A DNA stretch of 59,949 nucleotides, the filler included. It is 10 parts of 10 records of this genome, joined end to end, with 100 filler letters (N's around TTAATTAATTAA, not from the genome) between each part and the next. Parts side by side here need not be neighbours in the genome. Positions count along the whole stretch, not along the records: positions 52,761 to 59,949 come from SRR31147125_173485; 9 more parts are not named here. One strand, written 5' to 3'. Position numbers and translations under genes: made by a program. Every line of letters begins with the position of its first letter. The first letter of the stretch is position 1. Below, piece by piece: positions 47,219 to 59,949 of this stretch. The notes under the pieces are model-generated. The model ran no database searches and was not told the origin of the DNA. It was given only the letters and a program-made list of their open reading frames with translations.

Positions 47219-47247
47219 TGGGGTGTGGGGTGTGGGGTGTGGGGTGT
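47219..47247 (+). repeat. (GGGGTGT)4 tandem repeat at the contig edge
   Basis: Four G4 tracts separated by TGT. Confidence 0.85.
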
Positions 47248-47451
47248 GCGACGGGATCTGACTTCTACCCAGTCAAGTATTCATTTTGTTCCTCAGATCA
47301 TAGTCAACAACGTGAGTTCCTCCCTCGTTCGGTACGTGAGTGAGATAATCCATCCACCAATATGCCACAATCTAATGCAATGATCGAAGACGTTACCTGG
47401 GGCTTTGTCTCTCCGTCAAGTATTTCATCCCCGATACGGTGCTGCACTATA

Positions 47452-50400
47452 TCAAGGAGCATCGTCTATACGAAGCGAGACCCCCCGTATCCGTTGACAA
47501 AACGTCCGCGCCTCCTCATTGCGACCCTGCTTCTTCAATACGAGGATAAGATTGCGCAATGATGCCTTGAGGTCACGATGAGTCGGCTCAAGGAACCTCT
47601 CACGGAGTTCGAGGGCTTGACGGTGTAGAGGCTCGGCTTCGCCGTATCGGCCTTGCGCCTCCAACATTGTTCCCAGATTGGTGGCGTAGGTTGCCACGTG
47701 GAGGTCGTCGGGGCATGTACCACCCGACTGTGCCATCTCCAGGGCACGACGATAGAGCCCCTCCGATTCACTGCATCGTCCTTGCTCCTCAAAAAGTCCT
47801 GCCAAGTTATTCAAACGGACGGCAACCTCCGGTCCACCGCCGTCCACTGCCTCCCCAATTGTAATGGCGCGTTTGTCTAACAGAGAGACCTCTTAACAAA
47901 CCGACACACCCAGACAGGGACGGACGTACACAGGGTTTCTGCCTCAATGTGCAGGCCCAGTTTCTCCAGAAGTACGGCCAAGTTATTTGCACTCTTCCCA
48001 ACCTGAAGAAACAAGAAACCCGAGGTTACACATCTACACACACACGCACACACACACCTGCGGGTGGACATGCCCGAGAGTTGTTTCACGAATGGTCAGA
48101 GCACGTCGAAAGAGAAGTTCTGCATCCGAATAGCGGCCTCCAACTTGCAGAAGCACCGCAAGGTTGTTGAGAAGTGGAGAAACTTCAAGATGATTGGAAC
48201 CAAAGGCGAGTTCACGGACACGAATCGCACGAACGAAGAGTTGTTCCGCCTCGGCATACTTGCCCCGCGCCTGGAGCACCAGTGCTAAGGAGTTGATTGC
48301 CGTCGCATAGTCGGGATGGTTCTTTCCAACTACATTCTTCGTGATCTCAACCGCACGGCGTCCCAGGGGCTCTGCCTCATCAAAGAGACGACGTCTCTTG
48401 AGAAGTTCCACGGCACGAGTAAGACAAACGGCAACATGGGGATGATCCGTGCCCAATGCGGATTCGACATGGGAGAAGATTTGTTGAAGCAGGAGGTCCA
48501 ATTCCTTAGAGGTGTTTCCGCCAACGCACCCCGCAATATGGCAGGCCAGCCGCCACAGCTCACAATATTCTCCGATATGATTCGCGCCAACTTCGCGCTC
48601 GCGGATGGCAAGGGCCCGTCGTAGCAGTCCCGTAACTTCGTCGTCATTGGATCTGCTTTGCTCGGCAAGAATTCTCGCTAATTCATCAAGTGTCGCGATA
48701 AGGTAGGGACTATCGTGTCCATGCATCTGCTCTCGGGTACGAAGCAATGCTCGGCACTGCTCCTCGTCATAGCTGTGTGGCCGCATGCCCTTTTTGACCA
48801 CGGGGACGGTCGCAAGCACACGGACCGGCCGGGTTTCGCTGATACGTAACCCAGAAATGGTAGCGACGCGTCGCATAAGGGACGAGAACCGAAGTGAGAG
48901 CAACTGGGTCCAGAACTCGACCACCGTACTGGTTTGAGACGAATCCGAGGGCCAACGGAACTTGGACTGAAGGTGGGGCACAATAACTGTTCGCCAGTAG
49001 TGTCGTCGACTGGCGATGTCACTTGCCTCGTCGTCGCTGATACACAAGCAATCCACATGTCGTTGAGCAACAGCAACATAAGCGGCATCGTCACTCTCCT
49101 GTACGCTGCGCCACTCACTCCAGAGTGCAATCTTGACGACGCGAGCAACCATTTCCTCCATCACAGCTCGACGAACTGTTGAGGCATGATGAGGAAGGGC
49201 GTCCAAGACGCATCCCAGAAAACAGATATTGATTCCGTGGTGATGAAGTAGGTCCGTCACATCGTCACCGCACACGGTGTCAGGGTGTGGGTGTTGGAGC
49301 AGATCGTGAATGACAAGAGGAATGGCGTCGCACAATATGGCCTCGAATGCATCCACAACGGCTTGTTCATCGTTCCCGTCACCAAACTCCGTAAAGGCGT
49401 CCGAATTAAGTGGCACGGGGTTCACGGCAACACACTCTGGTCGCAAGCGAGAAGCATACGGCCCGTCGTGGTGGGGGACACGGGGATCAAGAGAAAAAGG
49501 GGAAACAATCGTCCCGTGTTCGCCGCGTAGTATCGGCCCGAGGAACTCACATGTCCTTGAAAATCCACAGAGCCAAGAACATCCACAGAACCACCTGGAC
49601 CGCGTCCCACACGATGCTGCTTGAGGTTGAGGTGATCACAAACGCGCTTGAGCAGTGTGGTGAGCACGGGATCGGCAGCACTCACAAACGTGGCCGTCGC
49701 ATCGTCCTTGTCGTCCATCAAGCCTTGTGCAAGGGTTGTGGACGAGACGGGAGGGACCGATGACACCATAATGCGATGGCCACGATATGTGAAGCAAGCG
49801 GCAAGAGGAAGTGACAAAAAGGGGCCGGCGACGCGCGTCAAGGCATGAAGGCTGCGATATTCATGACCTGCATCCTTCATGACACGACGGACACGATCAT
49901 CACTTGTCTGAGCAGGAGAGTCCCGATCGGGCCAGAGGCGTACAAGGAGACCACGAGCGATGAATGGAGGTGTCGCACGTATCCGTTGCAGGTCAACACT
50001 CTTGTGCATATCCTCTACGAGTGATTGAACCAGTGGATGGGCTGTTTCGAGCATGTCTTGTTCGAGTCTCCTAATCAAGGCAAACGGCGCGTGAAAGATT
50101 CCGGATGCTTTGCTCAAGGTCTCTTGGAATTCCCTGGCCCAGTCTCGAGCGTGGGACTCACTTTCTCCCACCATATAACCGGTGTGAGATCGATCCATAA
50201 GACTCTGCCCGTCCCCATGTTCCTGTTCCTGTTCCTGTTCCTGTTCCAGTCGATCGCGTTGCCGCTGAAAGCCCTGGCGCCGTCCACCCTTGAAGCCCAG
50301 GTCGATCATGTGTCCCGAGAGGTCCACTATGAAGCCCGGGGAGGGATCCTCCGGTCTAGGTGAAGTGGTAGAACTGGTGGCCGGATGCGGGGGCACAATG

Positions 50401-50937
50401 GCAGCGTGCAACTCCTTTGCATCGTCCACAGCCTGCCGCAGTGCATCCACCCACGCCACACCCTCAACATCGCTCTCTGCACGAAGAACAAACGTGCGAG
50501 AGTGGTGTTCACCCATTACGTGGATCTGAAACACACGTGGGTTCTCTGTCTCCCCAATCACCTCCGAGACGGAACACAAGGGGATGATTCCTCGAGGAGA
50601 GGGTGTGTCAATGGTCATCCCAGAGGAGTCCGCCGTTGTTTGGATCTGGGTTCGCGTCTGGGTTTGTGTCTGGTGTTCGGCCTCCTCATCAAAGTCTTGG
50701 GTTTGGTGGAAGAGTGAGAGGATGAAGGACAAGAAACAAGGAACAAGGTCTCACGTACAAAGAAGAGCATCTGCTCGAAGGACAAAACTGTTTGGGACAG
50801 AGAGAGAGGCGGTTCGTTCCATCGCAATGTTACCCCGTAATTCCCGTGGACACACACCTGCGTCGTTGCCAACGATGATGAAGTGCAGGAGACTTCTTAT
50901 GCAAGACACCTCGGTGAAGAACAATCGGAATGCTCAT
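47452..50937 (-). CDS. PH + CLU (clustered mitochondria) + kinesin-light-chain-type TPR protein, multi-exon (frameshift near 49500)
   Basis: PH (GVLHKK..WQRR.FVL..LLYF..PRGII.L..WVDAL), CLU (RDWAREFQ, AGHE, YRGHR, LNLKQH, GRYY..RLFP, LRPE..PLNSDAF, LHHHGINI), TPRs (HPDYATAINSLA..GKYAEAE.L..RA). Introns include 48003-48057 and 47877-47929. Confidence 0.85.
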
Positions 50938-51119
50938 CTCGAAAGAGAGAAGAGGGAGAGGAGAGGAGAGGGGGGGGGCAAAGAGGGAACCATCATGGGC
51001 AAGTCATGTCTATACAAGACCCGCTCCGCATCAACACCACGAACATGTTCGACCATGTATCCCTGCCTCCCTGCCTCCCTCCACACACCCCTTCAACCTT
51101 TTCCAGCACCCCTTCGCCC

Positions 51120-51905
51120 TTATGGCTTGGCCTTGGGCTTGGCCTTAGGCGATGGCTTGGCGGCAGCCTTGGCCTTGGCCGCTGGTTTGGGAGACGCAGC
51201 CGCGGGCTTAGCGGCGGCAGCCTTGGGTTTAGCGGCAGGCTTGGCAGCAGCAGGCTTGGGGGAAGCAGGCTTGGCAGCAGGCTTAGGAGAAGCCTTAGCC
51301 GCAGCGCCACCAGATGACGGACGCGCCGCAGCAGGTTTGGGCTTGGGTGGGGTGGTGGCGCGCTTGGCTTCCACGGAACCTTGGGACTTGCGCTTCACAG
51401 CTTCCTTCCCCTTTTCCGTCTCGGCGCCTGCTTTCGATTGTTTCTCCTTGAGGGCTGCTTCACGTCTCTCACGTGCGGAGTCTTGCTTCTCTTCAATGGA
51501 GCGTTCGATTTCATGTTGTTCTCCCTTCATCTTCTCCGCTACTTCCTTCGCCTTCGCGACTTCAGCTCCCGCCTTCTCCGCCTTTTCACGTTCTTGTGCT
51601 GTGCGACGTTCGCGTGCAGAGTCTTGTTTGTCGTCTATCTCCTTGGCGGCATCGTCGCTCTTTTCTGTCGCCTTCATGCGTACCTCTTCCACCTTCTTCG
51701 CACGTGCTTCCAACTTCTCCTTTTCCAGTCGAGCCTCCTCATCGCGTTTCTCTGCTGCTCGCCGTTGTTTGTCATCGAGTTCCTTGGCTATCTCGTCAGG
51801 GCCTTTGGAGCCTCGCGACTCAAGGCGCTCCTTCAATTTGACGGGTACAGGACCTCCAGCGGCGGCGACGTCCACCTCGATAACATCTCCCTTCTTGCCG
51901 GACAT
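51120..51905 (-). CDS. Coiled-coil protein with three 47-aa stathmin-like repeats and a Lys/Ala/Pro-rich tail
   Basis: 261 aa from the ATG at 51905. Repeats start at DDKQ, DDKQ and EEKQ, 47 residues apart. Tail of PKPAAK-type repeats. Confidence 0.65.
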   Translation of the reverse strand: MSGKKGDVIEVDVAAAGGPVPVKLKERLESRGSKGPDEIAKELDDKQRRAAEKRDEEARLEKEKLEARAKKVEEVRMKATEKSDDAAKEIDDKQDSARERRTAQEREKAEKAGAEVAKAKEVAEKMKGEQHEIERSIEEKQDSARERREAALKEKQSKAGAETEKGKEAVKRKSQGSVEAKRATTPPKPKPAAARPSSGGAAAKASPKPAAKPASPKPAAAKPAAKPKAAAAKPAAASPKPAAKAKAAAKPSPKAKPKAKP

Positions 51906-52204
51906 AGCGGTAGAGCGTGCGAGCAGAGGGGGGATGGATGGGGTGGGGGTAAAGCAGGCGAAGGCGAGCAGAGCAAGCGAAGGGAAATGAGTAGCCCACG
52001 TACCCGTCACCTCCCCACCCCATCCCTCTCTACGTCATGTGAAAGACAGAAGAAACATGTGGGGGACGGGAGGAACATGGGGCGAGGGCAGGGAGGGCTG
52101 GGGCAGGAAGGGGGGAAGCTGTTGAGGGATGTGGCGCCATGCGTTTTGCCATGCGCCAGCGAACGCATGGGGATGGGGATCGTATACACCCTTTGTTGAT
52201 TCAC

Positions 52205-52660
52205 TTATGAACTCGTGGGTTCTTCGGTCGTCTGTGCCCTTTGTAGGAATGGTGCTCCTCGTTCCATTCGCTCCACCTCTCGAACAATCGCCCTCGTGGG
52301 TGTATAACAAAATTTGTCTATAATGGAGAGTCGTGTGGGTATTTCTGGATGACAACACCACCACCAACGACGACACATACCACTCCGAACCCAGGCGTGG
52401 AGCATCTTACCTTCCCAGATCTTTGCTCGGAGTGTTTCGGGAGACGTTTGATTCACGAATCGACCATAGAGGTGGTTGATTTGGTTCTGATTGTGTCGGA
52501 GGAAGCTGGAGGACGGATGGACGGACGAGTGAGGTGTGGGGAACACACAAGACGACAGCACTCCTTACAGATATGCATGGGTTCGGCCGTGTGTGGTAAG
52601 GATCTGTAAGGCTCGCCCTCGGAAGGCTCTGTGCAGTTCCTGGACAACAGCTGCAAGCTT
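52205..52660 (-). CDS. Partial multi-exon eukaryotic gene, unknown product
   Basis: Open frame from the contig edge (KLAAVVQELHRAFRG..) to a GTAAGG donor, then a further exon-like segment. Boundaries uncertain. Confidence 0.3.
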
Positions 52661-52760: not shown

Positions 52761-55297
52761 GGGAGATCGAGGAATGCGACAGCCATGTCGTCACGATGAG
52801 TATCCCCTTCGGGTTTCCCCATTTCCCGCCGAGCTGTAAGCCCAAAAGCCCGATATTCCATCCGGATTTCGATCCTGCGGCAATCTGCATCGGTGATTTC
52901 TGGGAGAAAAACCGCTCTATCGTTGAACTGATCAAGCACATCAGGGAAATGATAGCAGGTGAAGTCTATTCAACCTCCAATGCATTCAACGAAGAAGCCG
53001 CACGCTGGTATGCTGAAAAATTCGCCAGACCGGAGCAGGATGTGTCGGAACCGTTCCTCGATCCGCTACCGCCTTCTGCAGAACCCGATGAACCGGTGGG
53101 GAATGATTTCACTTCATTGCTCGACGACGAAGTGGACGACGTGGTCGGTGACGACCTGCTTGGTGATTTCGAACCCGGCACCGACAGCCCCGTCCCTGCC
53201 CTGAGTTTCGCCGATGAACCCGCGGCCCCGGGTGACGGCCAATCGGAAGAAACCCTCGACAGTCTGTTCCAGGAGTCTGATTTCGATTTTGAATCCTCCG
53301 CACCTTCCGAAGAGACAAAGGAAGGGGACCTGCTTCCGTCAGACTTCGGTGGAGAGCTCGAAAAAGAAGTGGTGAAGGATGACGTTGATATCAAATATCT
53401 CCAGGAGCTGACCGAGAGCAAACGCTACTTCGGGCTAGACAGAGAACTGTCGCAGCTTTCTGAAGACACCGTCTTCGATGGCAGAGATGCATTCGCCGAA
53501 GAAGCTGCAGATGCTCTCGAACAGGCTCAATCACTCTACACCCGTGCACTGGAGTATGAACACAAGGGGGAACCGGAACGGGCACTCAGATGTTTCAAAC
53601 AGATACCCGACTACACCACCGACTATCCGGGTCTGCAACAGGACATCAACCGAATAGCCCAGGCACTCGAGCTCCTTGGCGACTGGACGGAACCGGCTGC
53701 GGAAGAGAAGAAGGTTGCACAAGTCGAAGAGTTGACTGAGGCGGAGACAGAAGAGGAATCCGAAAGAACGCAGAAACCGCCCCCGGCCCAGCCGGCTGAA
53801 TCTCCGAAAGACAGACCAGCGGCGGGTACTCCCGAGTCACGCACATTCTTTGAAAACGACAATCAGGGGAAATCCCGCCTGGTTCCGATAGCGATTGGTA
53901 TCATCATCCTGCTGATTGGCGCGGCAGCCGGAATTAACTATTATCTCAGCACAGACAACTACGAGAAAGCCTCACGCTATTATGCAGACTGCAGGACCTC
54001 GCTCGAAAAGAATCGCTTCACCGATGCCGAGCAGCAATGCGAGTCGGCACTGGGAGTGGTGAAGCAGATCTTTTTGTTCAAAACATCCGATCGTGATCAA
54101 TTGACCGGCGAAATCGAGAGGACGCTCAGGTCGAAGCCGCTCAGGGAGGGACTGGCCGGTAACCTCCCGCTGGATGGAAACTATTACCCCCAGAAGGTTG
54201 TGCAAAACATCCAGACCTTCAGAAAATTCAAAGCCGAGGGAGACTCATTCTTCGCCAGTGAAAAATGGCAGCACGCCGTATCGAATTACCAACAGGCGCT
54301 GGAAATTGCCACAGACGAAGAATCCATCGATCGTCAGCAGGCCTTCCTGATCTTGGAGAATATCAAACTGGCCAAGTTCAGGATAACTTATGAATCCGCC
54401 CGTTCGTATGTAAAACGCAAGAAATGGGTTCTGGCCACCAACGATTTCAACACCGCATTCGAGCAGTTGAAATCACTCGATACAGACGACAAGGCGTCAA
54501 TCATCGATGACATTACGAACCAGTTGAGCACCATTGCACTGGCAACTGAGAAGGAGAAAGGTGATACCGCTTTCCGGGACGCGCGATGGCATGAGGCGGC
54601 ACTGCACTATCGCAAGGCTCTCGAGATCGCCCGACAGGCTCCCGCTGCAGACGAGGATGCAATTTACGAACTGAAACAGCTTGTCGTAAAAGGAGATCTC
54701 TACAGTATTATCTCCACGGGAAAATCCGCGTTCAGGAAGGCACAGTGGGACATGGCAATAGACAGCTATGATCAGGCCATCACGCTCCTGGAGGACAATC
54801 GCGAACTGCTCAAACAAGCAAACACTGAGGAGAACAGGAAGAAACTCGCCCGCATCCTGCTCCAGGCAGCAGTGATCAGGGATAAGCAGAGCGCGGCGCG
54901 ACACCTCAAGGAACACGAATACGGCGAGGCTATCGCGAAACTCAAGGCGATCCACGACTCTATCACAACCAGTGAATTCGAACAGGAGCAGGTTTTCGTT
55001 GCCGCCCTGGAAGAGGCTGAGCAGTCGATTGAACAGGCGCAGAAGGATCGACTGCTGTCAGATAAGATCAGTTACCTGGAAGAAAATTTTGAAGCACTCT
55101 TCACCAAACATTATACAGGAGCCCCCCCCGAATCCCTGACCGAGCGCACCGTCATTTTCGAGAAGCGGGAGGGTGATATCCTGCTGTTCAGGTTACAGTG
55201 TGTTGAGATCGGCCATGGCAGACCGCTCCAGTTGGTCATGAAGTACGCCTACAACCTGAAGACCGGGACGTGGCGCTTTCACAGCGACGCAGAATAA
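52761..55297 (+). CDS. Ubiquitin-conjugating enzyme (E2/UBC)-like domain + acidic linker + TM + TPR protein (probably 5'-partial)
   Basis: IPFGFPHFPP.C...SPIFHPDFDPAAICIGDFW..SIVELI..I..MI....NAFNEEAARWY. One TM at about 53880-53945 and multiple TPR pairs. The frame is open back to the contig edge. Confidence 0.8.
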
Positions 55298-55328
55298 AGA
55301 CCGGGTCGGAATCGAGTACTGCGTATCC

Positions 55329-56300
55329 TCAGATCAGAAAACGGAATTCACCTTTGCCGAGCAGATCGTGGAGATGGAGTATGCCGAGCAGACACTGCTC
55401 AGCATCGACCACGGGCAGTACCGTTACCTCATGGTGCTGCATGACGCTCAGTGCATCGACTGCCAGCATATCATAAGAAATCGTAATCGGATTTCTGGTC
55501 ATCAATTCAGCAACCGGAGTCGCACCAAGATCAATGCCGGATGCCACGTATCGTCGCACATCACCATCGGTGACAATGCCATCGACCGACTGCTTCGCTC
55601 CGGTCACGATAACCGCACCGAGATTTTTACCGTTCAACTCAGCCACGGCTTCCTGAACACGTGCATCGCTGACCACACTCGGAACTCTTTCGCCGGTAAG
55701 CATGACCTCCGAGACCTTGACTTTGAGACGGGCCCCGAGACTTCCGGCCGGATGGTTGAAACGAAAATCCTCCGCCTTGAAGTGATTTCGATTCATCAGC
55801 ACGACCGCAAGCGCATCTCCCAGAGCCAGGGTTGCGGTTGTACTGGTGGTCGGCGCCAGCCCGAGCACGCAGGCCTCCCGCGGAATCGATATATCAAGTA
55901 CGACATCCGCTGCTCTTCCAAGAGTGGAGGAAACACCACCGGTCATCGCGATCACCGCTCTGCACCGCCTTCCAAGGTTTGCGAGCAGGCTGTTTAATTC
56001 ACTGGTTTCCCCAGAGTATGAAATCGCCAGTACCACATCTGTCTTCTGGACCATACCCAGATCACCGTGCATTGCCTCGACCGGGTGCAGGAAAAAGGAA
56101 GGGGTACCCGTTGAATTCAAAGTCGCACATATCTTCTGCCCGATAATACCGGATTTCCCGATTCCCGTGATTATCAGTCTGCTCGGGCAGTCGAGAATCA
56201 ACTCCGCAGCTTTGATAAAGTCCGCACCAATGCGTTGCCGCACTGCGGCCAGCCCTTCTTCTTCGATCAGCAGTACTTCCTGTGCCTGCTCAATGGTCAT
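55329..56300 (-). CDS. kdsD: KpsF/GutQ family arabinose-5-phosphate isomerase (SIS + CBS)
   Basis: TGIGKSG, STGTPS, EAMHGDLG, SYSGET, APTTST, HPAGSLG, CBS pair. Confidence 0.93.
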   Translation of the reverse strand: MTIEQAQEVLLIEEEGLAAVRQRIGADFIKAAELILDCPSRLIITGIGKSGIIGQKICATLNSTGTPSFFLHPVEAMHGDLGMVQKTDVVLAISYSGETSELNSLLANLGRRCRAVIAMTGGVSSTLGRAADVVLDISIPREACVLGLAPTTSTTATLALGDALAVVLMNRNHFKAEDFRFNHPAGSLGARLKVKVSEVMLTGERVPSVVSDARVQEAVAELNGKNLGAVIVTGAKQSVDGIVTDGDVRRYVASGIDLGATPVAELMTRNPITISYDMLAVDALSVMQHHEVTVLPVVDAEQCLLGILHLHDLLGKGEFRFLI

Positions 56301-56513
56301 ATCCGACCCCCTTCATGTGAAAACTGGTTGTACTCGTAAGTTCCGCTCCCGTATAACAGCCTGGATTGGCCACTTTATCTCCCCGTTTATACGGATATGT
56401 CTTGACACATAATCACTCCGGGATTCTTATATGAGGCTTGGCAATTTAGAGCATCATGCATACATTAGCAACCGGTAAATGTGCACAATAATAACAATAG
56501 AAACGGAAAAATC

Positions 56514-57677
56514 ATGTCAAGTTACCTTTTTACTTCAGAATCAGTCTCCGAGGGACACCCGGACAAAGTGGCCGATCAGATTTCCGACGCCATCCTCGAC
56601 GCGATCCTCGCCCAGGACAAACATGCGCGGGTGGGCTGTGAAACGATGGTTACCACCGGTATGGTCCTGGTAGCCGGAGAGATCACCACCTCGGCGTGGG
56701 TGGATATCCCCGACGTGGTGCGCCAGACCATAAAGGAGATTGGTTACAACTCGTCGGACATGGGCTTCGACTGGCAGTCATGTGCGATCCTGACGTCCAT
56801 TGACAAGCAATCCTCCGACATCGCCCAGGGCGTTGACGAAGGCACGGGAGTAGACCTCGACCAGGGAGCGGGAGACCAGGGCCTGATGTTCGGGTACGCC
56901 TGCAGCGACACTGATATGCTGATGCCGATGCCAATCTACTATGCGCATCAGTTGACCATGCGCCAGGCGGAAGTCCGCAAATCAAGCCGCCTTCCCTGGC
57001 TGCGTCCCGACGCCAAGAGCCAGGTTACGGTCCAGTATGTCGACAACGTTCCAACCCGGATCGACGCCGTCGTCCTGTCCACCCAGCACGATGAGAGCAT
57101 CGCCTACGAGGATCTCAAGGAAGGGGTCATGGAGGAGATAATCAAACCTATTTTACCCGTCGATATGATCGACGCCGATACCACGTTCTTCATCAATCCA
57201 ACCGGGCGTTTCGTCATCGGCGGTCCCGTCGGCGACTGCGGAGTCACCGGCAGGAAAATAATCGTCGACACCTACGGCGGAAAAGGCTCACACGGCGGCG
57301 GCGCATTCTCCGGAAAGGATCCCTCCAAGGTCGACCGCTCTTCATCGTATATGGGCAGATATATAGCGAAAAACCTCGTCGCCGCGGGCATTGCCAGTGA
57401 GCTTGAAGTGCAGGTCGCCTATGCAATCGGCATATCCCAGCCGGTTTCGGTAAACATCAACAGTTTCGGAACCGGAAAAATCAGCGACGACAGGATCAAA
57501 GACCTGGTGGTCAAGCACTTCGATCTCAGGCCGAAATCGATCATCCAGCAACTTGATCTGCTGCGCCCGATCTATCGCGAGACCGCCGCCTACGGGCACT
57601 TCGGTCGCAATTGTGATAATTTCTCGTGGGAGCGCACGGACAAAGCCGAGGGGCTGAAAGCTGCCGCCGGACTCTAA
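56514..57677 (+). CDS. metK: S-adenosylmethionine synthetase
   Basis: [28 protein letters not shown]. Confidence 0.99.
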
Positions 57678-57711
57678 TCAATTCAGAAAGAAGCACAGAA
57701 CAGGATTTATC

Positions 57712-59010
57712 ATGACCTCACCCACCAACGATTACAAAGTAGCAGATATGTCCCTGGCAGACTGGGGACGCAAAGAAATAGCCATCGCAGAGACGGAAAT
57801 GCCCGGCCTGATGAGTCTGCGCGAGCAGTATAGGGGCCAGCAGCCGCTGAAAGGGGCACAGATCGCCGGTTGTATCCACATGACCATTCAGACTGCCGTG
57901 CTGATGGAAACCCTGGTTGAACTCGGAGCTGAAATCCGCTGGTCCTCGTGCAACATATTCTCGACCCAGGATCATGCGGCTGCTGCAATGGCCGCAGCCG
58001 GAAACCCGACCTTCGCCTGGAAAGGCGAGAGTGAAGAGGAATTCTGGTGGTGCATCGACCAGACAATTTTCGGCCCCGACGGATGGCGCCCCAATATGAT
58101 CCTCGACGACGGTGGCGACCTCACCCTGGTCATGCACCAGAAATATACGGAGCAGATGGAGCAGGTCCGGGGAATAACCGAAGAGACCACAACCGGTGTT
58201 CATCGCCTCAACGAGATGGCAGAAGACGGAACACTGCTGTGCCCGGCTTTCAACGTGAACGATTCGGTCACCAAGTCGAAGTTCGACAACCTCTACGGCT
58301 GCCGCGAATCGCTGCTCGACGGGATCAAGCGGGCAACCGACGTGATGGTGGCCGGCAAGGTTGCCGTGGTCGCAGGATACGGAGATGTCGGCAAGGGATG
58401 CGCCCAGGCGCTGGCCGGGATGGGAGCGATCGTGCTGGTCACCGAGGTAGACCCGATCTGTGCACTCCAGGCCGCGATGGAAGGCTACCGGGTTGTGACG
58501 ATGGAGGAGGCTGCGCCAATCGGGAATATCTTCGTCACCTGCACCGGCAACGTCGACGTCATTACACGGGCCCATATGGAGCAGATGCCCGACGAAGCGA
58601 TTGTCTGCAACATCGGTCACTTCGACTCTGAAATAGATATCGCGTCGATCAGAGAACTCGAATGGGACTCGATCAAGCCCCAGGTCGATCATGTGACGTT
58701 TCCCGACGGCAAGAAGATCATTATCCTTGCCGAAGGACGTCTGGTCAACCTCGGCTGCGCGACCGGCCACCCCAGTTTCGTGATGAGCAACTCATTCACT
58801 AACCAGGTGCTCGCTCAGATCGAGTTGTGGAACAACGGGGATGCCTATGATAACAACGTCTACTTCCTTCCCAAGAAACTCGATGAGATGGTAGCGCGGC
58901 TTCACCTGTCGAAAATAGGAGCCAATCTCAGCACCCTGACTCAGAAACAGGCCGACTACATCGGCGTCGGTGTCGAGGGACCCTTCAAACCGGGTTATTA
59001 CCGCTACTAG
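57712..59010 (+). CDS. ahcY: Adenosylhomocysteinase
   Basis: [43 protein letters not shown]. Confidence 0.99.
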
Positions 59011-59034
59011 GGTACATACTCAAGCGTTCACCTA

Positions 59035-59078
59035 CCAAAAAAGGAGCAGTCGGCAGCGCCGTTCTGCTCCTTTTTTGG
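59035..59078. terminator. Rho-independent terminator after ahcY (bidirectional shape)
   Basis: CCAAAAAAGGAGCAG..CTGCTCCTTTTTTGG. Confidence 0.85.
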
Positions 59079-59170
59079 TTCACCATACAGCCAGTGCATG
59101 CTCCGGCACCTCTGATGTCCTGCAACAGGTCAGAGCGGCCCGCACCGCATCCATTTTTGCCACACTGCCA

Positions 59171-59198
59171 CAAAAAAAGGCGCAGAACTCCTATGAGC
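59171..59198 (-). terminator. Rho-independent terminator after dsrD
   Basis: AAGGCGCAGA..TCTGCGCCTT hairpin followed by a T7 tract on the minus strand. Confidence 0.8.
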
Positions 59199-59238
59199 TC
59201 TGCGCCTTGAACAAACTTCGGAAAAACAGGTAGTGCGT

Positions 59239-59475
59239 TTATTTTTCCTCGTTCTGAATACGACTCGGATCCGCATACATCGTTGTAGATCCAGACGACC
59301 AGAACATCAAGCGGCCTTCACGAACGAGCTCGTTGGCCACGTTCTTGATCTTGCGCGGTTTCGTATCCGGGTCGCACTTGTAAAAATCTTTTATATACAA
59401 CTGCGGCTTTGGTGATTTTGCTGCTTTTTCACAAATCGCATCTTTTAGTTCATCATCACTCAGAGGCATTTCCAT
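59239..59475 (-). CDS. dsrD: Dissimilatory sulfite reductase D protein
   Basis: K.QLYIKDF..PRKIKN...LV.EG.L.FWSSGSTTMY. Directly downstream of dsrB. Confidence 0.95.
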   Translation of the reverse strand: MEMPLSDDELKDAICEKAAKSPKPQLYIKDFYKCDPDTKPRKIKNVANELVREGRLMFWSSGSTTMYADPSRIQNEEK

Positions 59476-59559
59476 TCTCCTTTTTTAATGTGACCAAAAG
59501 GGCATCAAAGCCTGCTCCGCAGTGCGAAGCAGGCTCTCGATCAGCAGAAAACCAGTCAA

Positions 59560-59949
59560 TTACTTGATATGGCTGGAATACTTAAACTGAGTGGTTGTAC
59601 GCCAGGTGTCATACGCAAGGCGATAATCATCGATGCTCTTTTCTGTAAATGGGATATCGCATTTCTCATAGAAGCGCTCCCAACCAATCCTCTCCGCCCA
59701 CTCACCAACGCGCTCATACTTGCGTGCGTCTTTCGCGTAGGCTTCAACGATCTTCCTGATAGCCTCAACCGTTTCCGGCCAGCGAGGCGGGGTGTTCGGC
59801 AAGAACGGAATAACGAGCTTGGAGAACTTTGGTGCAGAACGGCTGTTGGAAATCTTTCCACCAACCAGAATTGCAATGCCGTCACCTTCCGGATCCGCCA
59901 GCGGCATAGCCGGACACATGGTGTAGCAGTTACCACAGAACATACAGCG
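59560..59949 (-). CDS. dsrB: Dissimilatory sulfite reductase beta subunit (5'-partial)
   Basis: CMFCGNCYTMCP, VGGKISN, PNTPPRWP, ARKYERVGEWAERIGWERF. Confidence 0.97.
   Translation of the reverse strand, partial: RCMFCGNCYTMCPAMPLADPEGDGIAILVGGKISNSRSAPKFSKLVIPFLPNTPPRWPETVEAIRKIVEAYAKDARKYERVGEWAERIGWERFYEKCDIPFTEKSIDDYRLAYDTWRTTTQFKYSSHIK

What the first reader, a model, noticed from the sequence alone, without database searches (positions are those of the whole stretch)
52761..55297. Bacterial membrane protein with a ubiquitin E2-like N-terminal domain and TPR array: candidate transmembrane Ubl-conjugation or signalling system in a dsr-carrying bacterium
Seen: the first ~85 visible residues follow the UBC/E2 pattern (P..FP..PP, IFHP, Cys in AICIGDFW at codon 52886-52888, downstream W, terminal N.EAA.WY helix). 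A long acidic linker, a helical/TPR unit, one TM and ~450 aa of TPR-like repeats with a small C-terminal domain follow. The contig is clearly bacterial (intronless, kdsD, metK, ahcY, dsrBD). Established: E2s carry a Ubl on this Cys, and characterised bacterial E2s mostly occur in E1/Ubl/JAB operons such as antiphage CBASS Cap2 and Bil systems. Inference: type-II topology (E2 inside, TPRs outside) in a housekeeping neighbourhood suggests a receptor-like E2 coupling an envelope cue to cytoplasmic protein modification, an architecture I do not know to be characterised. No E1, Ubl or JAB gene is visible, but the upstream DNA is missing.
Basis: partly seen in the sequence, partly recalled or inferred. 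Interest (0 to 1): 0.8.

Follow-up and report, generated by a model that had tools for sequence, protein, structure and literature searches.

The report
Orphan membrane-anchored E2-like protein
This is a membrane protein found in most sulfate-reducing bacteria of one order, whose inner end has the fold of a ubiquitin-conjugating enzyme, but it has no ubiquitin machinery and related species have lost the key cysteine, so it probably serves as a docking module rather than a tagging enzyme.

Summary
Frame 52763-55297 is open to the contig edge and lacks about 53 N-terminal residues. It encodes a UBC/E2-like domain, an acidic linker, a TPR unit, one membrane helix, 447 aa of helical repeats and a small beta domain. 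Full-length orthologues (800-913 aa) reach Pfam UQ_con. An AlphaFold model (pLDDT 82.8) matches eukaryotic E2s (Foldseek E 5e-7, TM about 0.7), with the Cys and HP residues on the E2 active-site motif.

The interpretation as a receptor-like E2 is not supported. The gene sits in a fixed housekeeping block (SecDF-CxxCxxCC-HAD | gene | KdsD-MetK-AhcY-DsrDBA) in 80 related loci, so the missing upstream DNA most likely holds HAD, not E1/Ubl/JAB. Orthologues in the same genomic position carry Arg, Ala or nothing at the Cys site. Among 150 cluster representatives it is Cys in only 88, while His, Pro and Trp nearby are invariant. The Asn of HPN is Asp. No dedicated E1 or Ubl was found in ten genomes.

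The domain is related to the E2 of bacterial E1-Ubl-E2 operons. Best reading: an E2 fold reused as a docking module on an envelope-spanning scaffold. The scan found this family before on two other genomes, and I found no paper on it.

The parts
52763..53038 (+). UBC/E2-like domain, 5'-truncated at the contig edge. It corresponds to residues about 54-145 of full-length orthologues, and about 53 N-terminal residues (helix 1 and the first strands) are missing.
   Evidence: Pfam UQ_con E 9.7e-4, 19.2 bits, residues 10-88 on profile 49-130/140. Aligned with 38 full-length N-domains. The model of orthologue L001 has pLDDT 82.8 and matches E2 structures.
52859..52867 (+). His-Pro-Asp, the counterpart of the E2 HPN motif, with Asp in place of Asn.
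   Evidence: Aligned to HPN of UBE2C. Among 150 representatives His is 150/150 and Pro 150/150, while the third position is Asp 125 and Asn 21.
52886..52888 (+). Cys codon at the position of the E2 active-site cysteine.
   Evidence: Aligned on the Cys of the ICLD motif of UBE2C. It is Cys in 117 of 120 close homologues but in only 88 of 150 cluster representatives. It is replaced in syntenic orthologues.
53039..53383 (+). Acidic low-complexity linker.
   Evidence: 31% Asp+Glu and 6% Lys+Arg over residues 89-250. Its length varies among orthologues.
53387..53686 (+). Cytoplasmic helical/TPR unit.
   Evidence: Pfam TPR_1 and TPR_2 best stretch at residues 255-280, TPR_1 41.2 bits against a cut-off of 27.8.
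53879..53947 (+). The single transmembrane helix.
   Evidence: The only Kyte-Doolittle window above 1.6 (maximum 2.71) in this protein and in five orthologues. Most of the 150 representatives show one such span.
53954..55087 (+). Predicted periplasmic helical-repeat (TPR/MIT-like) region. It holds a covarying Cys pair at 53990-53992 and 54038-54040.
   Evidence: AlphaFold model pLDDT 92.7, all helices over residues 1-386. Only generic TPR matches. The Cys pair is present together in 59 of 70 Cys-type rows and absent in 29 of 29 Arg-type rows.
55088..55294 (+). C-terminal small domain: a helix plus a four-stranded sheet.
   Evidence: Strands at 395-406, 409-418, 425-434 and 439-443 of the model. 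No fold search was made on it alone.
55329..56300 (-). Convergent neighbour kdsD/kpsF (arabinose-5-phosphate isomerase family). It is the most constant neighbour of the gene.
   Evidence: NCBIfam kpsF 329 bits against a cut-off of 204. Adjacent in 68 of 80 loci and in L081 and L085-L088.

Best explanation
The gene encodes a bitopic inner-membrane protein that is present in most genomes of the order Desulfobulbales.

Shown:
- Its N-terminal domain is a true classical-type UBC (E2) fold.
- That domain is related to the E2 of bacterial E1-Ubl-E2 operons.

Inferred:
- In this protein the fold has been taken out of a conjugation cascade. It now works mainly as a non-covalent docking surface, in the way UEV and RWD domains do.
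- The surface is formed by the invariant PFGFPHFPP loop, the HPDFD loop and the Trp.
- It is held on a long acidic tether and a short TPR unit at the cytoplasmic face of the membrane.
- The 447-residue helical-repeat ectodomain with its small beta domain binds a partner in the periplasm or envelope.
- The protein would therefore link an envelope component to a cytoplasmic one as a scaffold. It would do so without forming a thioester.

The Cys kept in the window's clade is read as an ancestral residue under weak constraint, not as a required nucleophile. Neither partner is known. The fixed position beside secDF and kdsD is the only hint, and it is a weak one, towards export or envelope biogenesis.
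For: Fold:
- The model has pLDDT 82.8.
- Foldseek gives at least 387 PDB matches at E<=0.001. All the listed rows (ranks 1-50) are E2s, with TM 0.63-0.72.
- UQ_con matches 39 of 39 N-domains, and none matches Prok-E2, RWD or UEV.

Origin:
- hhalign of the family against a 189-aa E2-like protein gives 95.2% probability and E 2.5e-8 over 108 columns.
- That protein lies in an operon of ThiF-E1, a 74-aa ORF, a YukD-like protein and the E2.

The Cys is dispensable:
- Among 150 representatives it is Cys 88, Arg 38, Ser 6, Ala 3, Lys 3, Phe 2, His 2, Asn 2, while His86, Pro87, Trp100, Pro72, Pro76 and Ala132 are 150/150.
- At least 18 state changes are needed on a tree of 123 rows. Inside the window's own clade of 69 rows the states are 58 Cys, 3 Ser, 2 Asn, 2 His, 2 Phe and 2 Ala.
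- Positional orthologues between HAD (or DUF4388) and KdsD carry Arg (L087 Desulfobulbus sp., L088 Desulfogranum mediterraneum), Ala (L085) or no equivalent (L081).
- Two of 79 readable species loci have Ser.
- The Asn of HPN is Asp in 125 of 150.

No cascade:
- The neighbourhood is housekeeping in 80 loci.
- HAD, CxxCxxCC and SecDF lie upstream in 13 of 13 closest loci.
- YukD was found in 0 of 5 genomes, with the control ringing in 2.
- ThiF above cut-off is 2-5 per genome in six Cys-type genomes and 0-3 in four non-Cys genomes.
- The one JAB-E1 found sits in its own Multi_ubiq/Prok-E2_E operon, in 1 of 5 genomes.

Core gene: the domain is found in 212 of 300 genomes of the order.
Against: - The Cys is kept in 117 of 120 close homologues, down to about 30% overall identity. 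This could reflect selection for a nucleophile in this clade.
- Ser, the commonest replacement inside the clade, is also a nucleophile.
- No binding partner was found, so the docking role is inferred from what is conserved and what is not.
- No RWD or UEV family match supports a pseudo-E2 class (0 of 39).
- Absence of a dedicated E1 or Ubl was checked in only ten genomes and by Pfam models. An unrecognised Ubl, or a housekeeping MoeB/ThiF acting in trans, is not excluded.
- The PF00240 search rang in no control genome, so it shows nothing.
- Topology rests on a hydropathy scan and a crude Lys/Arg count. That count favours N-in in 4 of 6 proteins, ties in 1 and goes the other way for the window's copy.
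- The tree is FastTree only, with several long branches.
Confidence: 0.6

Rival explanations
1. It is a working membrane-tethered E2 in the Cys-bearing lineages, including the window's. It would be charged in trans by a housekeeping ThiF/MoeB-type E1 with a ThiS/MoaD-like or unrecognised Ubl, and it would modify proteins at the membrane. The Arg/Ala lineages would be derived pseudo-enzymes.
For: - The Cys lies exactly at the E2 active-site position, next to an invariant His-Pro.
- It is Cys in 117 of 120 close homologues and in 58 of 69 rows of the window's clade.
- The basal rows of the tree carry Cys, and some carry HPN.
- The domain is kin to an operonic E2 that has its own E1 and Ubl.
- Every genome checked but one has ThiF-family proteins.
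Against: - There are eleven non-Cys rows, in several separate places, inside the same clade.
- Syntenic orthologues work without the Cys.
- Asp replaces the Asn of HPN. From memory, that Asn is needed for isopeptide formation in classical E2s.
- There is no E1, Ubl, JAB or RING gene in 80 neighbourhoods.
- ThiF counts do not differ between Cys and non-Cys genomes.
- YukD was found in 0 of 5 genomes.
Confidence: 0.2
2. The Cys is a thiol switch or sulfur carrier rather than a Ubl acceptor. The E2 fold would present a reactive cysteine that senses redox or sulfide state, or carries a persulfide, in a sulfur-metabolising cell.
For: - The gene is fixed a few kilobases from dsrABD (54-55 of 80 loci).
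- From memory, E1/Ubl chemistry descends from sulfur-transfer systems; the abstract of PMC1779556 links ThiS/MoaD to sulfur incorporation (listing).
- A second cytoplasmic Cys (position 78) changes together with the first: Cys in 70 of 70 Cys-type rows, Val/Ala/Ile in 28 of 29 Arg-type rows.
Against: - Desulfobulbaceae orthologues in the same dsr-linked position lack both cysteines.
- Position 78 aligns with a buried Val of the E2 strand, so its change looks structural.
- The whole block is syntenic across the order, so linkage to dsr carries little weight.
Confidence: 0.08
3. It is a eukaryotic E2 sequence that entered by contamination, or by recent transfer into one bacterium.
For: - The best matches by Pfam, PDB sequence and fold are eukaryotic E2s.
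- Other pieces of the window look non-bacterial.
Against: - The domain is the N-terminus of one continuous bacterial ORF on a contig with kdsD, metK, ahcY and dsrDB.
- 242 species genomes encode a relative.
- 212 of 300 genomes of the order have the domain, mostly as one copy.
- Identity to eukaryotic E2s is only 15-22%.
- A bacterial operonic E2 is at least as close.
Confidence: 0.01

Closest known systems
Classical ubiquitin-conjugating enzymes (Pfam UQ_con PF00179; for example UBE2C, Rad6, UBE2K, Ubc9)
   Same: - The fold is the same: N-terminal helix, beta meander, active-site loop, then helices.
- The YPxxPP-like loop, His-Pro, a Cys at the aligned active-site position and the following Trp are shared.
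   Different: - Identity is 15-22%.
- Asp replaces the Asn of HPN.
- The stretch from the Cys to the Trp is three residues shorter.
- Only two helices follow the Trp in the model. From memory, classical E2s have three.
- The domain is fused to about 700 further residues with a membrane span.
- There is no ubiquitin, E1 or E3.
- The Cys is lost in many orthologues.
E2 proteins of bacterial E1-Ubl-E2 operons (Iyer, Burroughs and Aravind 2006, PMC1779556, passages read; example here L084 9409-9978)
   Same: - Profile-to-sequence match at 95.2% probability.
- HP(N/D), Cys-x-Gly-x-Trp and the C-terminal N-x-(D/E)-A-x-x-W-Y helix are shared.
- The example comes from the same phylum.
   Different: - The operonic protein is 189 aa, soluble, and encoded beside a ThiF E1 and a YukD-like protein.
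- The window's family stands alone in a housekeeping block and is membrane-anchored.
UEV and RWD domains (non-catalytic UBC-like modules such as Mms2, TSG101 and the GCN2 RWD domain; named from memory)
   Same: This is what the protein most likely works like: a UBC fold used for binding without a thioester. The Arg, Ala and other variants lack the Cys, as UEVs do.
   Different: - No Pfam UEV or RWD match in 0 of 39 members.
- His-Pro is retained, and the window's copy still has the Cys.
- From memory, those families are eukaryotic and soluble.
Antiphage E2s: CBASS Cap2, Bil and the Multi_ubiq/Prok-E2 operons (papers seen only as search listings: 10.1101/2022.03.31.486616, PMC10557695, PMC11601596)
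   Same: These are bacterial proteins of the E2 superfamily.
   Different: - There is no detectable relation to Prok-E2_E (hhalign probability 0.2%).
- The family is not in a defence island.
- It is not next to an E1 or JAB gene.
- It is vertically inherited and syntenic. The one such operon seen (L089) is a separate island present in 1 of 5 genomes.

Membership tests
Classical E2 / UQ_con (PF00179) | UBC fold | tested here: met
   The AlphaFold model of orthologue L001 residues 1-145 has pLDDT 82.8. Foldseek gives at least 387 PDB matches at E<=0.001, the listed rows (ranks 1-50) are all E2s, and TM is 0.63-0.72. The window's copy holds only the last two thirds of the domain.
Classical E2 / UQ_con (PF00179) | Score at or above Pfam's gathering cut-off (27 bits) | tested here: inconclusive
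   The family straddles the cut-off. The window fragment scores 19.2, L001's N-domain 25.8, L039's full protein 28.4, and distant kin 30-45. 39 of 39 members match at E<=1, best 1.2e-8.
Classical E2 / UQ_con (PF00179) | HPN motif with Asn | tested here: not met
   The window has His-Pro-Asp. Among 150 representatives the third position is Asp 125 and Asn 21, with His and Pro invariant.
Classical E2 / UQ_con (PF00179) | Cysteine at the active-site position, conserved in the family | tested here: not met
   It is present in the window (52886-52888) and in 117 of 120 close homologues. Across the family it is Cys in only 88 of 150, and it is replaced in syntenic orthologues.
Classical E2 / UQ_con (PF00179) | Forms a thioester with a Ubl handed over by an E1 | not testable with these tools
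   This needs biochemistry.
Classical E2 / UQ_con (PF00179) | A cognate E1 and Ubl encoded nearby or in the genome | tested here: not met
   None in 80 neighbourhoods. YukD was found in 0 of 5 genomes. Only housekeeping-size ThiF sets are present. The PF00240 search is uninformative because the control rang nowhere.
Bacterial operonic E2 (E1-Ubl-E2 gene clusters) | Sequence relation to an operon-encoded E2 | tested here: met
   hhalign gives 95.2% probability and E 2.5e-8 over 108 columns against the L084 E2. Only one example was tested.
Bacterial operonic E2 (E1-Ubl-E2 gene clusters) | Encoded in a cluster with E1, Ubl and often JAB | tested here: not met
   The block SecDF-CxxCxxCC-HAD | gene | KdsD holds in 13 of 13 closest loci and broadly in 80 loci.
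UEV / RWD non-catalytic UBC-like domains | Match to the family models | tested here: not met
   0 of 39 members match any UEV or RWD Pfam model at E<=1.
UEV / RWD non-catalytic UBC-like domains | UBC fold lacking the active-site Cys | tested here: not met
   The window's copy keeps the Cys. The feature is met only in sister lineages (Arg 38, others 24 of 150).
Prok-E2 families of defence operons (for example PF14462) | Sequence relation | tested here: not met
   hhalign probability is 0.2% against the Prok-E2_E protein of L089. No Prok-E2 model matched in 39 members.
TPR repeat proteins | Pfam TPR model above cut-off | tested here: met
   TPR_1 scores 41.2 bits against a cut-off of 27.8, and TPR_2 33.6 against 27. 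The ectodomain model gives only generic TPR matches with TM below 0.2.

The most novel reading that the evidence does not exclude
In the Cys-bearing lineages, including this one, the protein is a true transmembrane E2. Its periplasmic repeat domain would gate a cytoplasmic thioester (or, in the Ser variants, an oxyester) transfer of an as yet unrecognised small modifier charged by a housekeeping ThiF/MoeB enzyme. That would make it a chromosomal, non-defence protein-tagging pathway in bacteria. The Arg-type orthologues of Desulfobulbaceae would then record, within one orthologous group, the conversion of an enzyme into a pseudo-enzyme.
Probability: 0.15. Interest if true: 0.85.

Novelty: new variant of a known kind. 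Interest (0 to 1): 0.5.

Why it matters
From memory and from the search listings, bacterial E2-like proteins known so far sit in mobile operons with E1, Ubl and JAB genes, mostly for phage defence. Here a classical-type E2 fold is a vertically inherited core gene of a whole order (212 of 300 genomes). It is welded to a membrane-spanning repeat protein and has no cascade around it.

Two things follow:
- It gives a natural series (HPN+Cys, HPD+Cys, HPD+Arg/Ala/Ser) for asking how an E2 becomes a binding module. That is the same step that gave eukaryotes UEV and RWD domains.
- It points to an unknown envelope-spanning protein of sulfate reducers and their relatives, whose partners on both sides of the membrane could be found by pull-down.

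It also warns against the automatic name 'ubiquitin-conjugating enzyme E2', which RefSeq gives even to an Arg-type orthologue.

Tried and rejected
- NCBIfam on the whole protein gave nothing (best E 0.013).
- No whole genome is held for the window, so partners were sought in the genomes of related loci.
- The PF00240 ubiquitin search found 0 of 5, but the control rang in no genome, so it shows nothing.
- Prok-JAB rings in 5 of 5 genomes at E<=0.01, and also in 9 of 14 control genomes, so it is not informative.
- The ectodomain gave only generic hits. Foldseek found generic TPR proteins (31 at E<=0.001, TM at most 0.19). VIA-align over 48,161 chains gave a best Z of 11.2 on three-helix, MIT, TPR and Bro1 pieces, below the level that tool gives for helical repeats. 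The ESM Atlas gave scores of at most 0.82 on generic TPR clusters. No functional lead came from any of these.
- I considered the divergent cNMP-binding/DUF4388 gene as a partner. It is present in 61 of 80 loci. It is absent from all 13 loci closest to the window and from L081 and L085. I therefore dropped it and sent no complex prediction.
- In the distant 1054-aa homologue L082 the neighbours are unrelated: QueH, an AMP-binding enzyme, MGMT, a TPR protein and an ABC transporter.
- Literature searches found nothing on this family. 'ubiquitin-conjugating' with 'Desulfobulbaceae' gave 0 papers. 'cable bacteria' with 'ubiquitin' gave 1 irrelevant paper. 'Desulfobulbales' with 'ubiquitin' gave 1 irrelevant paper. 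The E2/TPR/transmembrane search listed 15 of 18 papers, none relevant by title or abstract.
- In PMC1779556 the term TPR occurs 0 times, and the passages read describe no membrane E2.
- No sequencing-run or read-laying search was made.
Full report
WHAT IS IN THE WINDOW

The window is not one stretch of genome. It is ten pieces of 5-7 kb, with G+C from 0.395 to 0.579, joined by spacers of 44 N, TTAATTAATTAA and 44 N. The finding lies on the last piece, 52761-59949. Nothing to its left is genomic context.

The reading frame is open from 52763 to the stop at 55295-55297, which gives 844 residues. The ATG at 52796 listed is internal. Full-length homologues are 800-913 residues long and begin about 53 residues earlier.

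The rest of the contig carries a KpsF/KdsD-family isomerase on the other strand (329 bits), metK (607 bits), ahcY (645 bits), DsrD (96.9 bits) and the C-terminal part of dsrB (191 bits).

CHECK OF THE OBSERVATION

- The motifs PFGFPHFPP, IFHPDFD, AICIGDFW (Cys codon at 52886-52888) and NEEAARWY are in the sequence.
- Residues 89-250 are 31% Asp+Glu.
- Pfam TPR_1 matches at residues 255-280 (41.2 bits, cut-off 27.8).
- One hydrophobic span lies at residues 369-397.
- The last 447 residues fold with pLDDT 92.7 into helical repeats followed by a helix and a four-stranded sheet.

The truncated window copy reaches only 19.2 bits on Pfam UQ_con (E 9.7e-4, cut-off 27). The family as a whole is clearly E2-like.
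- 39 of 39 N-terminal domains match UQ_con (best E 1.2e-8). None matches a Prok-E2, RWD or UEV model.
- The full-length orthologue in L039 scores 28.4 bits.
- A profile of the 39 domains finds 235 PDB sequences at E<=10. The 60 best listed are almost all named E2 enzymes, and the best is UBE2C at 6.2e-5. His-Pro aligns on HPN, and the Cys aligns on the Cys of the ICLD motif. I recall that this is the catalytic cysteine.
- An AlphaFold model of the complete domain of the close orthologue L001 has pLDDT 82.8 and pTM 0.74.
- Foldseek gives at least 387 PDB matches at E<=0.001. All the rows listed (ranks 1-50) are eukaryotic E2s, with E from 5e-7, TM 0.63-0.72 and 15-22% identity.

THE FAMILY AND ITS SETTING

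The protein search found 320 homologues at E<=0.001 among the 8000 candidates scored. The 120 listed come from Desulfofustis, Desulfoprunum, Desulfocapsaceae and unnamed metagenomes. Most are unnamed, and some are called 'ubiquitin-protein ligase' or 'ubiquitin-conjugating enzyme E2' by automatic annotation.

In one genome per species, 242 genomes encode a relative. The best 80 loci are all labelled as Desulfobulbales lineages or by unspecific names. A profile of the domain matches 212 of 300 genomes of the order, mostly once per genome. It matches 9 of 401 genomes sampled across the phylum.

The neighbourhood is a fixed housekeeping block. Of the 80 loci, many of which are cut by contig ends, the counts are:
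- SecDF in 72
- a CxxCxxCC protein in 76
- a HAD hydrolase in 76
- KdsD in 68
- MetK in 62
- AhcY in 61
- DsrD, DsrB and DsrA in 55, 55 and 54

A divergent cNMP-binding/DUF4388 gene is present in 61 loci. It is absent from all 13 loci closest to the window. In those loci SecDF, CxxCxxCC and HAD lie directly upstream on the same strand. The DNA missing from the window's contig is therefore most likely HAD, CxxCxxCC and SecDF, not E1, Ubl or JAB.

THE DECISIVE POINT: THE CYSTEINE

Among close homologues the motif HPDFDxxAIC is found in 117 of 120. One of the other three is a fragment without the N-terminus, and two have Ser. Among the 79 species loci that could be read, 77 have Cys and 2 have Ser. 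L078 was out of register.

The wider family looks different. A profile search of 1.84 billion cluster representatives gave 1216 proteins at E<=0.001, 621 at 1e-10 and 147 at 1e-30. In all 150 listed, the domain is at or near the N-terminus (starting within the first 35 residues). Most are 650-1040 residues long with one hydrophobic span.

I aligned these 150 to the family profile.
- The active-site column is Cys 88, Arg 38, Ser 6, Ala 3, Lys 3, Phe 2, His 2 and Asn 2, plus six rows with other letters.
- His86, Pro87, Trp100, Pro72, Pro76 and Ala132 are 150 of 150.
- The residue after His-Pro is Asp in 125 and Asn in 21.

The non-Cys proteins are orthologues, not distant paralogues.
- L087 is labelled Desulfobulbus sp. 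and L088 is Desulfogranum mediterraneum. RefSeq calls the L088 protein 'ubiquitin-conjugating enzyme E2'. Both carry Arg.
- L085 carries Ala, and L081 has no equivalent residue.
- All four lie directly beside KdsD and the dsr genes. L087 and L088 also keep SecDF, CxxCxxCC, HAD and a DUF4388 gene upstream.

I built a FastTree tree of 123 rows. These were 115 of the 150 representatives (the 35 shorter than 650 residues were left out), seven locus proteins and the window. The tree needs at least 18 changes of state at this column.
- One clade of 36 rows holds 29 Arg.
- The window's own clade of 69 rows holds 58 Cys, 3 Ser, 2 Asn, 2 His, 2 Phe and 2 Ala, in several separate places.
- The basal rows carry Cys.

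The tree has long branches and no bootstrap support, so the order of events is tentative. The count of changes does not depend on the root.

NO CASCADE

- In five genomes with Cys-type proteins, ThiF-family matches above cut-off number 2 to 5. In five more genomes (one Cys-type, four non-Cys) they number 0 to 3. There is no extra E1 in the Cys-type genomes.
- YukD-type Ubl was found in 0 of 5 genomes, and the control rang in two known genomes.
- The ubiquitin model PF00240 found nothing, but its control rang nowhere, so that search shows nothing.
- The only JAB-E1 fusion found is in G001. It lies about 860 kb from the gene, in its own operon of Multi_ubiq, Prok-E2_E, JAB-ThiF and DUF6527, next to a type III restriction enzyme. 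That frame is in 1 of 5 genomes.

WHERE THE DOMAIN CAME FROM

One genome of the phylum sample (G374, locus L084) has a soluble 189-residue protein with HPN and a Cys. The family profile matches it (hmmsearch 1.1e-9; hhalign 95.2% probability, E 2.5e-8, 108 columns). The match includes the C-terminal N-x-(D/E)-A-x-x-W-Y helix.

That protein lies in an operon of ThiF E1 (E 1.5e-49), a 74-residue ORF, a YukD-like protein (26.6 bits, just under the cut-off of 27) and the E2. This is the kind of bacterial E1-Ubl-E2 cluster described by Iyer and colleagues in 2006 (PMC1779556, passages read). That paper's text has no occurrence of TPR, and the passages read describe no membrane-anchored form.

The Prok-E2_E protein of the defence operon is unrelated at this level (probability 0.2%). 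More distant kin of the domain score higher on UQ_con, up to 45 bits. They occur with FHA, MIT, TPR or three membrane spans.

TOPOLOGY AND ECTODOMAIN

There is one span, no signal peptide-like start, and 370-420 mostly acidic residues before the span. This argues for N-in.

A crude Lys/Arg count around the span favours N-in in 4 of 6 proteins, ties in one, and goes the other way for the window's copy. In that copy two basic residues fall inside the counted span.

Two cysteines 16 residues apart, just after the span, are present together in 59 of 70 Cys-type rows and absent together in all 29 Arg-type rows. This fits a periplasmic disulfide, but it is inference.

The ectodomain gives only generic TPR, MIT and Bro1-like matches.

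READING

The fold is real and the Cys is in the right place. However, orthologues in the same genomic slot do without the Cys, the Asn of HPN is Asp, and no E1 or Ubl goes with the gene.

I therefore read the domain as an E2 fold taken from a bacterial conjugation operon and reused as a docking surface on an envelope-spanning scaffold (confidence 0.6). A working E2 in the Cys-bearing clade is the main rival (0.2). A thiol switch or sulfur carrier is a minor one (0.08). Contamination or recent eukaryotic transfer is excluded.

The partners are unknown. Linkage to secDF and kdsD is only a weak pointer to export or envelope biogenesis, because the whole block is syntenic across the order.

EARLIER NOTES AND LITERATURE

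Two earlier reports of this scan, on other genomes (e1-3956603 and e1-4324414), reached the same reading. I had stated my reading before seeing them. I then tested their two claims here: Arg in a sister group, and kinship with E2s of YukD-type operons.

Five literature searches found no paper on this family. Papers of subscription journals are not in the library. I recall a 2008 survey of the E2 fold and a 2011 paper on prokaryotic RING and ubiquitin systems by the Aravind group. I did not see either, and they may bear on the claim that the family is undescribed.

Noticed in passing
window 1-52760: The window is ten unrelated contigs (G+C 0.395 to 0.579) joined by N/TTAATTAATTAA spacers. The piece just before the finding (47219-52660) has long low-complexity ORFs, for example a 296-aa Lys/Ala/Pro-rich frame at 51120-52010 on the minus strand. 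These do not look bacterial.
   Followed up: no
L084 9409-11777 (genome G374): This is an operon of a ThiF-type E1 (424 aa), a 74-aa ORF, a YukD-like small protein (94 aa) and a 189-aa E2-like protein with HPN and Cys, followed by a DUF4870 protein. It is a bacterial Ubl-conjugation cluster in a genome of the same phylum. Its E2 is the nearest stand-alone relative seen for the window's domain.
   Followed up: partly
L089 4131-6614 (genome G001): This is a Multi_ubiq, Prok-E2_E, JAB-ThiF fusion and DUF6527 operon. It lies next to a type III restriction helicase-endonuclease and a RhuM-family gene, so it is probably a defence island. It is unrelated to the membrane E2-like gene of the same genome.
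   Followed up: partly
proteins P0245, P0257, P0258, P0242, P0248-P0250: Distant kin of the domain occur in other architectures. One is UQ_con plus FHA (250-336 aa); a cluster member of one of these is from Spartobacteria bacterium LR76. Others are UQ_con plus MIT, and UQ_con with HPN and Cys followed by about three membrane spans. Their gene contexts were not examined.
   Followed up: partly
window 53990-53992 and 54038-54040: Two cysteines just after the membrane span are gained or lost together across the family: both are present in 59 of 70 Cys-type rows and both absent in 29 of 29 Arg-type rows. This suggests a periplasmic disulfide. Their loss coincides with the loss of both cytoplasmic cysteines of the E2-like domain.
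   Followed up: partly
L014-L080, about 300-1300 bases upstream of the gene, minus strand: A divergently transcribed gene for a cNMP-binding plus DUF4388 protein of about 352 aa is present in 61 of 80 loci. It is missing in all 13 loci closest to the window, and it is shortened to a 210-234 aa form in the Arg-type loci L087 and L088.
   Followed up: partly
genomes G498, G523-G536, G611: About 16 genomes of the order show two matches to the domain instead of one. In G498 the two are identical in score and on different contigs. I did not look at whether these are paralogues or assembly duplicates.
   Followed up: no
L082 5781-10418 and L083: These are 1054- to 1059-aa distant homologues that score 30.4 bits on UQ_con yet have no Cys and a shorter active-site loop. 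They are followed on the same strand by a 473-aa TPR protein, in a quite different neighbourhood.
   Followed up: partly
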